Positions 40,927-45,035 of a stretch of 64,000 bases of DNA are shown here, piece after piece (position 1 is the first letter of the stretch; each line of letters begins with the position of its first letter). The DNA is taken from assembly GCA_965248055.1 (NCBI GenBank), contig CBDFIJ010000004.1, positions 3,008,001 to 3,072,000 of the forward strand, read 5' to 3'. The notes beneath the pieces were generated by a model. The model was not told the origin of the DNA and ran no database searches. It saw only the letters and a list, made by a program, of their open reading frames with translations. This DNA comes from Candidatus Multivoradales bacterium. GTDB taxonomy: Bacteria; Acidobacteriota; Thermoanaerobaculia; Multivoradales; JAHEKO01. A program made the translations under genes and the position numbers.

Positions 40927-40954
40927 AAAGGGAGGGGTTATCCCCTCCCTTTTT
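40927..40954 (+). terminator. Intrinsic terminator after dcp
   Basis: AAAGGGAGGGG-TTAT-CCCCTCCCTTTTT: perfect hairpin plus T-tract, 25 nt after the stop. Confidence 0.8.
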
Positions 40955-40987
40955 CGCGCCCACCACACTTTTTTGTACCGAATTCTT

Positions 40988-41187
40988 TTGCACTTGCTGC
41001 CCTGGAGGCCGGCGCATGCTTTTCGGACTCCAAAGAATGGCATGCGCCTCGGCTTCGCATCGCGCTGGATCATTAGACGGCCTCGCCACATCGTGCCATG
41101 CGCTTGCGAAAGCCTGTCCTGAGCGACCGCTGGGAGTCGAAGGAACGCCTCCCGGGCTGGCAGGTACGGAGTTCCCCCCTCCCAAGA
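40988..41187. repeat. Structured dispersed repeat, copy A (carries a 34-nt insertion at 41111-41144)
   Basis: Aligns by eye with 42528-42694; long outer stem, inner hairpin GGCGCATGC/GCATGCGCC, shared tail CAGGTACGG...CCCCCTCCCAAGA. Confidence 0.75.
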
Positions 41188-41216
41188 GGACAGAACACAC
41201 GGAGGGAGTCTGCTTC

Positions 41217-41330
41217 GGCGGGGACAGTTCAAACACCTCGTCATCCCAACGCCAGCGAGCCTGCCCCGGCGGGGCGTGGGTGGGAGCCGGGGTCATCCCG
41301 GCGGTGGAAGGGCGAGGGGCCAGGATCTCG
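41217..41330. repeat. REP-like palindromic modules
   Basis: 41217-41247 is close to the reverse complement of GGGATGACGAGGTGTTTGAGCTCCCCGCC in the 294-bp array. 41283-41307 GGAGCCGGGGTCATCCCGGCGGTGG is identical to 44865-44889. Confidence 0.75.
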
Positions 41331-42283: not shown

Positions 42284-42417
42284 AGGCAGGGCGGTTCTCC
42301 AGCCGTTCGACGATGTTGCGAGAAACACTGCATCGTTGACGAAGGCGCGTTAGGTCAATGTTTCGACAGGTGCGAACGATTTTTTCGGTGTTAGACGTGC
42401 AACAAACTTGTGATCGT

Positions 42418-42524
42418 GCGCCGGCAGCACAGTGGGATATTGCACCAGCGAGCCTGCCCTGAGCGAGTTCGGCGAGCCGAAGGGGATCTGGGGGTCGAGG
42501 GTTCGAATCCTTCCCGGCGCGCCA
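42418..42524 (+). pseudogene. tRNA-Arg-like gene with the anticodon loop replaced by a REP-like insertion
   Basis: Acceptor GCGCCGG/CCGGCGC, D arm GCAC-AGTGGGATA-TTGC, anticodon stem CCAG/CTGG, variable GGGTC, T arm GAGGG-TTCGAAT-CCTTC, end GCCA. U8 is C and about 37 nt of repeat sits in the anticodon loop. Arg identity is inferred from body similarity only. Confidence 0.75.
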
Positions 42525-42527
42525 TTC

Positions 42528-42694
42528 TTGTACCTGCTGCGCTGGGAGCTGGCGAGCACTTCTCAGAATCCGAAAGTGGGTGCTCGCCTCGGCTTTGCTT
42601 CGCGCCGAATCGATGAAGGCCTATTGACGCCGGTGCTACGCACTTGCAAAGACGCCCCAGCGGCATCAGGTACGGGGGTTTCCCCCTCCCAAGA
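42528..42694. repeat. Structured dispersed repeat, copy B
   Basis: Starts 3 nt after the tRNA-like CCA; outer stem GTACCTG...CAGGTAC, inner hairpin GGCGAGCAC/GTGCTCGCC; homologous to 40988-41187. Confidence 0.75.
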
Positions 42695-42770
42695 TCAAAG
42701 AAGGAACTCGTCGTACGTCCCGTCCTGCGTGAGATGTGGGGTATAAACTATCGACGGAGGTTTGCTAAGA

Positions 42771-43970: not shown

Positions 43971-44072
43971 GGGGACACAATACTTTGTTTGTGTCCCCAT
44001 CTCCGCCGAGCGGCGATCTGCGCGCTGAGTCATCCTGAGCGACCGAGCTTTGCGAGGGAGTCGAAGGATCTC
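43971..44072. repeat. Hairpin plus REP-like half element
   Basis: GGGGACACAA..TTGTGTCCCC hairpin (43971-43998). GTCATCCTGAGCG...GGAGTCGAAGGATCTC (44029-44072) matches 44918-44961. Confidence 0.75.
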
Positions 44073-44099: not shown

Positions 44100-44564
44100 T
44101 CAATCCTTGGATCTGTCCCGTTGCTCTTTCAGCAAGGAGAGGCGCTCAACATCGGGCTTGTCTTTGTCCTCTCGACCGGTCGCTTTCTTCATCGCCAAGA
44201 GCTCGTCCAGGCCAGCGAAGTAGGTTGAGACGCCGGACAGTTCGCCGACTACTTTGCCCTGATCGACTTGTTCCCAAGTAACGCCGGGTACATCCGAATG
44301 GACCTCAACTCGGAGAATGTCGCCAAACGACAGAATGTCTCCAGCGATGAACTCCTCAGCAGAGAAATCAGGCTCGAAGTCTCCCCAAGTTTGCACTGCA
44401 CAGCGCACGTTGCGTGCGTTGTCGATCGACGGTTCGATCAGAACATCAATGGCACGCGTGGTCCGATACGGGATATACGAGATCACCGCGAACCCGCCGA
44501 TGACTACGTAGTCCGCGTCTTCTCTGTTGAGTGCATCCAGGAAAGCGGCAAAGTCCTTGATCAT
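44100..44564 (-). CDS. Nucleotidyltransferase-fold protein (Pol-beta superfamily)
   Basis: DFAAFLDALNREDADYVVIGGFAV...RTTRAIDVLI...MKKATGREDKDKPDV. Alternative ATG at 44582. Confidence 0.8.
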   Translation of the reverse strand: MIKDFAAFLDALNREDADYVVIGGFAVISYIPYRTTRAIDVLIEPSIDNARNVRCAVQTWGDFEPDFSAEEFIAGDILSFGDILRVEVHSDVPGVTWEQVDQGKVVGELSGVSTYFAGLDELLAMKKATGREDKDKPDVERLSLLKEQRDRSKD

Positions 44565-44736
44565 CGGCCCACCCTTGATCATCCATCAATCCTTGGTTCT
44601 TCCACAGTCCGTAAACGGTATCGAGCAACACCACCGCGGCCTGCATCCGCTCTTGGGAGCTCAATCCAATGCTGTCGGCGACATCGCGGGCAGCCTGTCG
44701 GTTGGAAGTGGCGAAAGTGAAGCATTCTTGTTTCAT
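44446..44736 (-). CDS. Small hypothetical protein overlapping the nucleotidyltransferase (antitoxin-like partner)
   Basis: LSSQERMQAAVVLL segment; its 3' end overlaps the NTase start in another frame. Confidence 0.5.
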   Translation of the reverse strand: MKQECFTFATSNRQAARDVADSIGLSSQERMQAAVVLLDTVYGLWKNQGLMDDQGWADDQGLCRFPGCTQQRRRGLRSHRRVRGDLVYPVSDHACH

Positions 44737-44917
44737 GAGAAGGTTATTATCTTCAATGAGATCAGTATTTTGACATGATTTGTGCCTGCCGCTCGGAGGA
44801 CTGTGGGCGCTTCTCGGAGGGCAGAACACAACATGGGAGCCTGCGTGGGCGTGGGCGTGGGCGTGGAGCCGGGGTCATCCCGGCGGTGGGTAGGGAGGGG
44901 GCTGGGACCTATTTTCT

Positions 44918-45035
44918 GTCATCCTGAGCGGAGCTGCGTAGCAGTGGAGTCGAAGGATCTCGATGCTGGCATATCGAGGTCATTGAAGAATCGAGATCCT
45001 TCGACTCCCTCGAAGATTCAGTCGCTCAGGATGAC
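44918..45035. repeat. Complete inverted REP-like doublet
   Basis: GTCATCCTGAGCG..GGAGTCGAAGGATCTCGAT...ATCGAGATCCTTCGACTCC..CGCTCAGGATGAC forms a long hairpin. Confidence 0.85.

What the first reader, a model, noticed from the sequence alone, without database searches (positions are those of the whole stretch)
42418..42524. tRNA-like gene whose anticodon loop is occupied by a ~35-nt mobile palindromic mini-element
Seen: intact acceptor stem, T arm, variable loop and CCA end. The 7-nt anticodon loop is replaced by CG-AGCCTGCCCTGAGCGAGTTCGGCGAGCCGAAGGG-GA (about 42449-42486). The insert belongs to the same family as 41111-41144 and shares the CCTGAGCG...GAG(T/C)CGAAGG core with 44029-44072 and 44918-44961. 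It is far too short to be a group I intron. U8 is changed to C and the D stem has a mismatch. Inference: either a tRNA killed by a REP-like insertion, or a retained anticodon-less tRNA-like RNA or integration scar. Palindromic elements inserting into RNA genes are known from Rickettsia RPEs; an anticodon-loop target is unusual.
Basis: partly seen in the sequence, partly recalled or inferred. Interest (0 to 1): 0.8.

Follow-up and report, generated by a model that had tools for sequence, protein, structure and literature searches.

The report
Anticodon-less tRNA-Arg relic carrying a repeat module
A former arginine tRNA gene has had its anticodon replaced by a short piece of a repeat family, so it can no longer decode, yet two related species keep it almost unchanged, which suggests it still does something.

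Summary
Window 42418-42524 (+) is a full tRNA body. Rfam tRNA RF00005 gives 35.6 bits against a cut-off of 29, but only when a short stretch is searched. The anticodon loop is missing.

Comparison with intact genes in related genomes identifies it as a derivative of tRNA-Arg(UCG). Five nucleotides (31-35) are replaced by 35 nt (42449-42483). That piece belongs to a repeat family with 35 strict copies in this chromosome. The same module occurs outside tRNA genes in other genomes. Its native 3' end, GGATCTGG, equals tRNA positions 36-43, so the join lies in a microhomology.

The only congener held (G001) has the same interrupted gene at the syntenic site, with a 9-nt shorter module. The two copies are 91/97 identical. 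Four-fold codon sites in neighbouring genes are 50% identical and the upstream DNA cannot be aligned. So the chimera looks held by purifying selection, not decaying.

It cannot decode. The genome has no tRNA-Arg(UCG) but has ACG and CCG.

Best reading: a retained, non-decoding tRNA-like RNA whose tRNA body carries the module. Expression is untested. Rivals are a plain pseudogene and a recombination site.

The parts
42418..42524 (+). tRNA-like gene: a tRNA-Arg(UCG) derivative of 107 nt, including the encoded CCA
   Evidence: RF00005 scores 35.6 bits over the full model. Acceptor stem and T arm match intact tRNA-Arg(TCG) genes of relatives. The G001 orthologue scores 48.1 bits.
42418..42448 (+). 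5' tRNA part: acceptor 5' strand, C8-A9, D arm (GCAC / AGTGGGATA / TTGC), A26, and anticodon-stem 5' strand CCAG (positions 27-30)
   Evidence: Read and aligned to intact genes. Against G001 there are 4 substitutions and 1 indel, all at position 8 or in the D arm.
42449..42483 (+). 35-nt foreign module that replaces tRNA nucleotides 31-35 (A, C, U, U, C), including the first two anticodon bases
   Evidence: Alignment with intact CCAGACTTCGGATCTGG arms. The same module occurs outside tRNA genes in G001, in 12 metagenome contigs and in one Terriglobales MAG. The nearest copy in this genome is at C4:900662-900689, identical at 26 of 28 positions.
42484..42491 (+). GGATCTGG: tRNA positions 36-43 and also the native 3' end of the module, so a microhomology at the right-hand join (9 nt if the next G is counted)
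   Evidence: All module copies outside tRNA genes end in GGGATCTGG(G). Most of the listed intact tRNAs read GGATCTGG at 36-43; some differ in the stem.
42492..42524 (+). Variable loop, T arm, acceptor 3' strand, discriminator G and CCA
   Evidence: 32 of 33 positions identical to G001. The T arm equals that of the intact gene in G008.
42525..42715 (+). Repeat of about 190 nt directly after the CCA, containing a hairpin whose stem co-varies between copies
   Evidence: 122 of 173 positions identical to the stretch after the G001 tRNA-like gene. Two more copies exist in this genome. No Rfam match was found over 42300-42650.
40956..41195 (+). Second copy of the ~190-nt repeat, carrying a nested module at about 41112-41143
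   Evidence: In alignment A3 the module block is present in this copy and absent from the other three. This is a presence/absence difference that argues the module was inserted.
44029..44072 (+). Canonical family copy (GTCAT-CCTGAGCG ... GAGTCGAAGG-ATCTC)
44918..45035 (.). Two family copies in inverted orientation (44918-44961 on +, 44993-45035 on -), a REPIN-like doublet

Best explanation
SHOWN.
- The locus is a tRNA-Arg(UCG) gene in which nucleotides 31-35 were replaced by a 26-35-nt module of a dispersed GC-rich repeat family.
- The right-hand join lies in an 8-9-nt identity between the module's native end and tRNA positions 36-44.
- The two species of the genus held here both carry the interrupted form at the syntenic locus. 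This points to a single event before they split.
- The product cannot decode. There is no 7-nt loop, no U33 and no UCG anticodon. The genome manages without this tRNA because tRNA-Arg(ACG) and tRNA-Arg(CCG) are present.

INFERRED FROM CONSERVATION.
- The chimera, module included, has been held by purifying selection since the split.
- The acceptor stem, T arm and module flanks are unchanged. The few changes fall at position 8, in the D arm, in the variable loop and in the middle of the module.

INFERRED MECHANISM (not shown).
- It is transcribed and matured like a tRNA: RNase P at the 5' end, trimming to the encoded CCA at the 3' end.
- It then persists as a stable, non-decoding tRNA-like RNA. 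The tRNA body acts as a scaffold that presents the conserved boxes of the module (CCCUGAG ... GAGCCGAAGGG) in place of the anticodon loop.
- It may also define the 5' end of the conserved ~190-nt RNA that follows it.
- What the displayed module binds is unknown.
For: ORIGIN.
- The full RF00005 model aligns at 35.6 bits here and 48.1 bits in G001 (cut-off 29), with 39 and 30 nt in place of the 9 central positions.
- ARAGORN confirms an intact tRNA-Arg(TCG) with the same or a near-identical acceptor stem (GCGCCGG in many) and a similar T arm in 26 of the 43 other family genomes searched, plus 1 genome of the same order.
- In G000 and G001 only the 3' half (positions 36-76) matches the intact gene, at 93-95%.
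- This genome has 48 tRNAs. Its Arg anticodons are ACG, CCG, CCT and TCT; there is no TCG.

MODULE.
- 35 strict copies in the chromosome, 29 of them with the GTC(A/G)T 5' flank.
- The same module with the GGGGATCTGG end lies outside tRNA genes in G001 and in 13 other contigs.
- It is nested in one of four copies of the 190-nt repeat.

SHARED ANCESTRY.
- Both genomes have the order M3 peptidase, variable genes, tRNA-like gene, 190-nt repeat, variable genes, IcmF-type mutase.

SELECTION.
- The tRNA-like gene is 91/97 identical between the species. The central region 42444-42491 (A26, both anticodon-stem strands and the module) is 38/39 and the 3' part 32/33.
- The upstream DNA is 47/100, the downstream repeat 122/173, and the DNA beyond it 40/95.
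- Fisher test, tRNA-like versus downstream repeat: p = 2e-6.
- Four-fold sites in 5 neighbouring gene segments are 509/1017 = 50% identical.
- 20 true tRNA pairs are 1498/1527 = 98% identical, range 92-100%.
- The shared accessory toxin-antitoxin-like pair is more diverged than the core genes (about 52-74% amino-acid identity in tblastx). This argues against a recent transfer of the island.
- The indels (1 nt and 9 nt) rule out a conserved overlapping ORF.
Against: - There is no expression evidence. No RNA run is available for this organism.
- No sigma-70-like promoter lies within 120 nt upstream in either species. The best match is 7 of 12, the mode for random 120-mers. By contrast, 19 of 48 true tRNA genes reach 9 of 12 or more, against 48 of 2000 random 120-mers.
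- The two species share no upstream block.
- In G001 the upstream gene is divergent, so read-through transcription cannot explain expression there.
- In G000, universal U8 is C and the 13-22 pair is broken. Changes in the 5' part (4 substitutions and 1 indel in 26 nt) outnumber those elsewhere, which looks like relaxed constraint.
- Thermodynamic folding alone does not recover the cloverleaf. The module pairs with the T arm in the minimum-energy fold, z +0.4 for G000 and -1.4 for G001.
- Only two genomes carry it, so there is no covariation test, and none of the 6 substitutions is compensatory.
- No partner or function for the module is known.
Confidence: 0.5

Rival explanations
1. A plain pseudogene. 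The tRNA-Arg(UCG) gene was dispensable because inosine-modified tRNA-Arg(ACG) reads CGA. It was destroyed by the module and is now silent, functionless DNA. On this view its similarity between the two species has some cause other than selection on an RNA.
For: - The anticodon is gone and no deletion restores it. Of 819 deletion variants, 6 give an ARAGORN call, and none is TCG.
- G000 has C8 and a D-stem mismatch that G001 lacks.
- Neither species has a promoter-like site upstream.
- It scores below every true tRNA (35.6 and 48.1 bits against 52 or more).
Against: - Neutral DNA between these species is about 50% identical and the adjacent upstream DNA cannot be aligned. The gene is 91/97 identical; binomial p against 0.5 is about 7e-21.
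- It is significantly better conserved than the repeat directly after it (p = 2e-6). A single recent transfer of the whole patch therefore does not explain it.
- The gene is unique in each genome, so gene conversion from paralogues is excluded.
Confidence: 0.2
2. A recombination site. The chimera, or at least the module plus the 3' half, is kept because it is the attachment site at which integrative elements repeatedly enter and leave this variable region. On this view the conservation comes from the elements' own copies, and the chimera itself may stem from an aberrant integrase event in the anticodon loop.
For: - In all 5 related genomes checked, a copy of tRNA-Arg(TCG) positions ~32-76 lies without a 5' half. 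In G048 it is 6.6 kb from the intact gene, and in G058 1.8 kb.
- The G048 interval holds a plasmid RepA-like gene and a BrnT toxin gene.
- The left edge of those repeats (positions 31/32) coincides with the left edge of the replaced segment.
- Gene content differs between G000 and G001 on both sides of the tRNA-like gene.
Against: - Neither G000 nor G001 has a second 3' half.
- None of the 7 Phage_integrase matches in the genome falls in the window.
- Exchange at an attachment site would refresh only the 3' side of the crossover. It would not keep the 5' acceptor strand (7/7) or the left module junction (19/19) unchanged.
Confidence: 0.15
3. A functional decoding tRNA whose insert is an intron removed from the RNA.
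For: The insert lies in the anticodon loop, where all known bacterial (group I) and most archaeal tRNA introns lie. The tRNA body is intact.
Against: - At 26-35 nt it is far below group I intron size, and no Rfam family other than tRNA matches.
- The genome has no tRNA splicing endonuclease (PF01974: 0 matches, while 4 archaeal controls are positive).
- Five tRNA nucleotides, including U33, U34 and C35, are missing. No excision can therefore rebuild a UCG loop.
Confidence: 0.03

Closest known systems
Rickettsia palindromic elements (RPE) and REP sequences inserted into genes
   Same: A short, dispersed, GC-rich, partly self-complementary repeat has landed inside a gene for a structured product without destroying the surrounding fold. 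Passages read in PMC3733652 describe REPs inside protein-coding genes and RPE-1 in a Rickettsia gene. RPE insertion into RNA genes is recalled, not read here.
   Different: The host here is a tRNA gene and the site is the anticodon loop. Five nucleotides were replaced rather than a clean insertion. The interrupted gene is conserved across two species. In the passages I read, no REP or RPE in a tRNA anticodon loop is mentioned. Searches (listings only) gave none.
REP/REPIN elements mobilised by RAYT (Y1) transposases
   Same: Multi-copy (35 strict copies). Intergenic in the copies inspected in the window. Some copies form inverted doublets such as 44918-45035. The genome has 13 Y1_Tnp matches.
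   Different: No family copy lies within 2 kb of any of the 13 Y1_Tnp matches. No GTAG or CGTC end tag is visible in the copies listed. The centre of the element varies while the flanks are fixed, and opposed GA/GA positions replace Watson-Crick pairs. The mobilising enzyme is unknown.
tRNA gene fragments at integration sites (attL/attR repeats)
   Same: The same tRNA species, Arg(UCG), is a repeated integration target in relatives, with the boundary in the anticodon loop.
   Different: Those fragments are bare 3' halves. Here both halves are present and contiguous apart from the module, and there is no second copy and no integrase nearby.
tRNA-like RNAs without an anticodon function (tmRNA tRNA-like domain, bacterial YrlA), and engineered 'tRNA scaffolds' in which a foreign RNA replaces the anticodon arm (all recalled, not read here)
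   Same: The acceptor/T-arm half is kept and the anticodon arm is given over to another RNA module. The proposed working (tRNA-type maturation and stability for a passenger RNA) is the one the engineered scaffolds exploit.
   Different: It is not a member of those families. Rfam models other than tRNA do not match. tmRNA is present elsewhere, at C4:1972708. No function, charging or partner has been shown here.
Group I introns in bacterial tRNA anticodon loops
   Same: The interruption lies in the anticodon loop of a bacterial tRNA gene.
   Different: The insert is about a tenth of the size, has no intron model match, and the flanking 'exons' lack five tRNA nucleotides.

Membership tests
tRNA (Rfam RF00005) | Covariance-model score at or above the gathering cut-off over the full model | tested here: met
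   35.6 bits (G000) and 48.1 bits (G001) against 29, model positions 1-71. The match is missed when 351 nt or 64 kb are searched.
Decoding tRNA | 7-nt anticodon loop with U33 and an anticodon, found by a standard tRNA finder | tested here: not met
   ARAGORN at default settings makes no call. The loop region is 39 nt. Nucleotides 31-35 are absent when aligned to intact genes.
tRNA-Arg(UCG) lineage | Acceptor stem, discriminator, D-loop GGAUA, positions 36-43 and T arm shared with intact tRNA-Arg(TCG) genes of the same family | tested here: met
   The 3' half is 93-95% identical to the G008 gene.
Group I intron | Catalytic core of about 200 nt or more that matches the intron model | tested here: not met
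   The insert is 35 nt (26 nt in G001). No Rfam match other than tRNA.
Protein-spliced (bulge-helix-bulge) tRNA intron | A splicing endonuclease in the genome, and exons that rebuild a complete tRNA | tested here: not met
   PF01974 has 0 matches in the genome while the archaeal controls are positive. No deletion variant restores TCG. The bulge-helix-bulge motif itself was not modelled.
REP/REPIN-RAYT system | Repeats flank, or are associated with, a RAYT (Y1_Tnp) gene | tested here: not met
   13 Y1_Tnp matches, none with a family motif within 2 kb.
REP/REPIN-RAYT system | High-copy short imperfect palindrome, often in inverted pairs | tested here: inconclusive
   35 strict copies and 51 loose copies, against 7-13 in block-shuffled genomes. 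Inverted pairs are present. Folds are weak rods with GA/GA internal loops. Positions 42445-42492, which span the tRNA-borne copy, fold no better than shuffles.
MITE | Terminal inverted repeats and target-site duplication | tested here: not met
   There is no duplication at either junction. Five target nucleotides are lost instead.
Integration scar (att site) | Direct repeat of the tRNA 3' part bounding an element, with an integrase nearby | tested here: not met
   No second 3' half in G000 or G001. No Phage_integrase match in the window. The feature is met in relatives G048 and G058 for the intact gene.

The most novel reading that the evidence does not exclude
A natural 'tRNA scaffold'. A bacterium has turned a redundant tRNA-Arg(UCG) gene into a stable, tRNA-processed carrier that displays a module of a widespread Acidobacteria-type repeat family in place of the anticodon loop. 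This would make a new class of small RNA, kept by selection. It would also imply that the repeat module is an RNA-level ligand, for example for a protein that recognises its conserved CCCUGAG / GAGCCGAAGGG boxes, and not merely selfish DNA.
Probability: 0.3. Interest if true: 0.75.

Novelty: new variant of a known kind. Interest (0 to 1): 0.55.

Why it matters
Interrupted bacterial tRNA genes are normally either group I intron hosts or debris. This one is neither. It is a short repeat module fused into the anticodon arm, and the whole chimera is conserved far above the neutral level in two species.

If it is expressed, three things follow:
- It would be a natural counterpart of the engineered tRNA scaffold.
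- It would be a rare case of a tRNA gene recruited to a non-decoding role after becoming redundant.
- It would give an experimental handle on what these very widespread but uncharacterised GC-rich repeat modules do as RNA.

If it is not expressed, the conservation itself needs an explanation, such as a recombination hot spot.

There is also a practical point. Standard annotation misses the locus. ARAGORN at default settings, and Rfam with its speed filters over long stretches, both return nothing.

Tried and rejected
- ARAGORN with introns allowed and lowered thresholds gives only forced calls with arbitrary anticodons (Ala-AGC with a 10-nt 'intron'). Rejected as artefacts.
- Paralogue search: no close tRNA paralogue in the genome.
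- Synteny beyond the genus. The 1.5-kb flanks of the intact tRNA-Arg(TCG) loci in hand (L003-L039) hold no M3 peptidase or IcmF homologue. In G012 the IcmF gene is about 28 kb from the tRNA, and the M3-like gene is far away. An 'uninterrupted tRNA at the orthologous locus' therefore could not be shown beyond homology of the tRNA itself.
- The ~190-nt downstream repeat does not follow the intact gene in other genera.
- Collection scans for the exact module-to-T-arm junction found nothing. Looser scans found only copies outside tRNA genes.
- A pattern search for 'module 3' box followed by a T loop' covered 401 genomes of the phylum and matched in 130. By reading the roughly 150 listed strings (2 more were not listed), only G000 and G001 have the module. 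Two look-alikes were fetched and are not tRNA-like.
- Sequencing runs: no RNA holder is listed. The 4 runs that hold the stretch come from one sample.
- PADLOC finds nothing for the 6 neighbouring proteins. NCBIfam gives an ATP-grasp peptide maturase for the G001 neighbour and a weak partial match (far below cut-off) to a GspD secretin model for the 266-aa ORF.
- Literature. A sequence-fragment search gave only unrelated primer hits (listing). Three keyword searches (listings only) and passages of PMC3733652 mention no repeat element in a tRNA anticodon loop. Supplements were not available.

Full report
WHAT IS THERE.

Window 42418-42524 (+) reads as a tRNA with every part except the anticodon loop:
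- acceptor stem GCGCCGG/CCGGCGC
- C8-A9
- D arm GCAC / AGTGGGATA / TTGC
- A26
- anticodon-stem strands CCAG ... CTGG
- variable loop GGGTC
- T arm GAGGG / TTCGAAT / CCTTC
- discriminator G and an encoded CCA

Standard detection fails. ARAGORN finds no tRNA in the window, nor with introns allowed. Rfam finds nothing at gathering level over 64 kb, and no tRNA over 351 nt. This is a filter effect. On 119 nt, cmscan aligns the full RF00005 model at 35.6 bits, E 1.7e-6, cut-off 29, with 39 nt in place of the 9 central model positions. The whole-genome run gives the same score. True tRNAs of the genome score 52 bits or more.

WHICH tRNA IT WAS.

The chromosome has 48 tRNA genes. All of the 12 printed end in an encoded CCA. 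The Arg anticodons are ACG, CCG, CCT and TCT; there is no TCG. No gene is a close paralogue of the tRNA-like sequence.

In related genomes an intact tRNA-Arg(TCG) has the same or a near-identical acceptor stem, the same discriminator and a similar T arm. ARAGORN confirms it in 26 of the 43 other genomes of the family that were searched, and in one genome of the same order. Many of the genomes without it are 61-89% complete.

The intact arm is typically CCAGA-CTTCGGA-TCTGG. Here CCAG is followed by 35 foreign nucleotides (42449-42483) and then GGATCTGG. So nucleotides 31-35 (A, C, U, U, C), including the first two anticodon bases, were replaced.

A scan of 819 deletion variants gave an ARAGORN call in 6. 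The anticodons were arbitrary (GGG, AGG, AGC), and none was TCG. The body is therefore tRNA-competent, but the anticodon cannot be recovered.

THE INSERT.

The core CCTGAGCG-N-CGAAGG occurs 5 times in the window against 0.03 expected, and 35 times in the chromosome. Of the 35, 29 have the consensus flanks GTC(A/G)T-CCTGAGCG ... GAGTCGAAGG-ATCTC and a variable centre. A looser motif gives 51 hits, against 7-13 in five block-shuffled genomes.

The tRNA-borne copy belongs to a sub-type (GAGCC-TGCCCTGAGCG ... GAGCCGAAGGGGATCTGG). This sub-type also occurs outside tRNA genes:
- once more in this genome, identical at 26 of 28 positions
- twice in the congener G001, as the second half of composite repeats
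- in 12 metagenome contigs and one MAG labelled Terriglobales

All these copies end in GGGATCTGG(G). The right-hand join lies in an 8-9-nt microhomology.

A second sign that the module was inserted comes from a repeat of about 190 nt. In alignment A3 the copy at 40956-41195 has the module nested at about 41112-41143. The three other copies lack it.

How the module moves is unknown. The genome has 13 Y1-transposase matches, but none lies within 2 kb of a family copy. 'REP-like' is an analogy, not a membership.

Typical copies fold into short rods with opposed GA/GA positions instead of Watson-Crick pairs. Positions 42445-42492, which span the tRNA-borne copy, fold no better than shuffles (z +1.7).

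THE SAME CHIMERA IN A SECOND SPECIES.

G001 is the only other species of the genus that is held. It has a 97-nt version that scores 48.1 bits. This version keeps U8 and a perfect D stem, has identical junctions, and has a module 9 nt shorter. The missing piece lies between two GCGAG repeats in G000. The copies outside tRNA genes have the longer form, so the G001 form is probably a deletion.

The locus is syntenic. Both genomes read: short-chain dehydrogenase, peroxiredoxin, M3 peptidase, variable genes, tRNA-like gene, 190-nt repeat, variable genes, IcmF-type mutase.

The variable genes differ:
- G000 has a 266-aa ORF upstream. Downstream it has a 377-aa ORF, a 52-aa + DUF6036 nucleotidyltransferase pair, and a Schlafen/AlbA_2 protein.
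- G001 has the DUF6036 pair upstream and an ATP-grasp peptide maturase downstream.

G001 has no intact tRNA-Arg(TCG) either.

IS IT DECAYING?

The two species are well diverged.
- Neighbouring core proteins are 80-89% identical, and four-fold degenerate sites are 509/1017 = 50% identical, against 30% expected from composition.
- Twenty orthologous true tRNA pairs are 1498/1527 = 98% identical, range 92-100%.

The tRNA-like gene is 91/97 identical over ungapped columns, plus 10 gap columns. By part:
- central region 42444-42491 (A26, both anticodon-stem strands and the module): 38/39
- variable loop to CCA: 32/33
- D arm: 13/16
- upstream DNA: 47/100
- downstream repeat: 122/173
- DNA beyond the repeat: 40/95

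The gene is significantly better conserved than the repeat that abuts it (Fisher p = 2e-6). One recent transfer of the whole patch therefore cannot explain it. The shared DUF6036 pair is more diverged than the core genes, so the island is not young. The indels exclude a conserved overlapping ORF. The gene is single-copy in each genome, which excludes gene conversion.

I conclude that the chimera, module included, has been under purifying selection since the species split. With only two sequences, this rests on rate comparison, not covariation. Five of the six substitutions fall outside stems, one breaks the 13-22 pair, and none is compensatory.

WHAT SPEAKS AGAINST A WORKING RNA.

- Neither species has a sigma-70-like promoter within 120 nt upstream. 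The best match is 7 of 12, the mode for random 120-mers. By contrast, 19 of 48 true tRNA genes reach 9 or more.
- No upstream block is shared.
- In G001 the upstream gene is divergent.
- G000 has lost U8.
- Minimum-energy folding lets the module pair with the T arm instead of giving a cloverleaf.
- No RNA data exist for the organism.

MECHANISM I THINK MOST LIKELY.

Shown: origin from tRNA-Arg(UCG), replacement of positions 31-35 by a repeat module at a microhomology, loss of decoding, shared ancestry, and conservation.

Inferred: the gene became dispensable because tRNA-Arg(ACG), read as ICG after deamination, covers CGU, CGC and CGA, and tRNA-Arg(CCG) covers CGG. That is established decoding knowledge. 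The deaminase itself was not searched for here.

Also inferred: the chimera persists as a non-decoding tRNA-like RNA. The acceptor/T-arm half gives tRNA-type maturation and stability, and the module's conserved boxes are displayed where the anticodon loop was. Engineered tRNA scaffolds use the same logic (recalled). The RNA may also set the 5' end of the conserved ~190-nt RNA that follows. I put about 0.5 on this package. The origin part alone is about 0.9.

RIVALS.

(a) Plain pseudogene, 0.2. It fits the lost anticodon, C8 and the missing promoter. It does not fit 94% identity against a 50% neutral level.

(b) Recombination site, 0.15. In all 5 related genomes checked, copies of positions ~32-76 of this tRNA lie without a 5' half. 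In G048 the copy is 6.6 kb from the intact gene, and in G058 1.8 kb. The G048 interval holds RepA-like and BrnT genes. This tRNA is therefore an integration hot spot whose boundary coincides with the left edge of the replaced segment. But this genome has no second 3' half and no integrase in the window. Exchange at an attachment site also would not preserve the 5' half or the left junction.

(c) Spliced intron, 0.03. The insert is too short for group I, no splicing endonuclease is present, and the exons are incomplete.

COMPARISON WITH KNOWN THINGS AND NOVELTY.

It works like a tRNA-like RNA without an anticodon (tmRNA domain, YrlA, engineered scaffolds; all recalled). It arose like an RPE or REP insertion into a gene (passages of PMC3733652). 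It is a member of none of these families; see the membership table.

I found no report of a repeat element in a bacterial tRNA anticodon loop. The basis is searches (listings only) and the passages of one paper. Supplements were closed.

A pattern search of 401 genomes of the phylum found the module-plus-T-arm arrangement only in G000 and G001. That search is limited to the exact pattern.

I rate it a new variant of a known kind, interest 0.55. The conservation is really unexpected for a beheaded tRNA. But there are only two genomes, no expression data and no known partner.

Noticed in passing
window 42525-42715, 40956-41195; G000:C4:2673790-2673897 (L012); G001 (L002, reverse strand): A repeat of about 190 nt with 3 copies in this genome and at least 1 in G001. 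It contains a hairpin whose stem sequence differs between copies while pairing is kept (GGCGAGCAC/GTGCTCGCC versus GGCGCATGC/GCATGCGCC). It also has strongly conserved blocks such as CGCCTCGGCTT. No Rfam match was found over the part searched, 42300-42650. It could be an unrecognised structured RNA or a protein-binding site.
   Followed up: partly
window 41253-41330 and 44838-44915; about 12 further copies in C4: A further GC-rich repeat family (GAGCCTGCCCCGGCGGGG ... GGAGCCGGGGTCATCCCGGCGG). It shares its first 12-15 nt with the left end of the tRNA-borne module. CCAGCGAGCCTGCCC occurs only at 41252-41266 and in the tRNA-like gene.
   Followed up: partly
G000 chromosome C4, 13 places (e.g. 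1142467, 2107097, 2374619): 13 matches to Y1_Tnp (PF01797), mostly in open frames of 305-346 aa. That is an unusually high number if they are RAYT-type genes. None is next to the repeat family studied here.
   Followed up: partly
window 44100-44737 (-): A two-gene pair: a 52-aa ORF overlapping a 160-aa protein with a weak DUF6036 nucleotidyltransferase match (E 5e-4, below cut-off). It looks like a toxin-antitoxin pair. A homologous pair lies directly upstream of the tRNA-like gene in G001. There is no PADLOC or NCBIfam match.
   Followed up: partly
relatives: G048:C15:172355-179086; G058:C14:111426-113328; G003:C116, G047:C223, G016:C69: 45-nt copies of the 3' part (positions ~32-76) of tRNA-Arg(TCG) without a 5' half. 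These are attachment-site-type repeats, which makes this tRNA an integration hot spot in the family. G016:C69 also has a second 20-nt fragment 26 nt further on.
   Followed up: yes
G000:C4:2576758-2578012: A Phage_integrase match (2577524-2578012) lies about 0.7 kb after tRNA-SeC (2576758-2576856). This is probably an integrated element at the selenocysteine tRNA.
   Followed up: no
G000 contigs C1-C3 (14.8, 16.7 and 28.4 kb): Three small contigs have 39-43% G+C against 57% for the chromosome, and carry no tRNA genes. They may be plasmids, phage or contamination.
   Followed up: no
G000:C4:645184-646559 and C4:3322643-3322709: Two tRNA-Leu(TAA) genes lie 1.2 kb apart on opposite strands. A 67-nt ARAGORN 'tRNA-Ala(cgc)' at 3322643 has no RF00005 match in the listing, so it is probably spurious.
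   Followed up: no
window 40927-40955 (+): A perfect 8-bp GC-rich hairpin followed by a T run directly after the M3 peptidase stop codon. It looks like an intrinsic terminator. It was read and is not listed by the scan.
   Followed up: no
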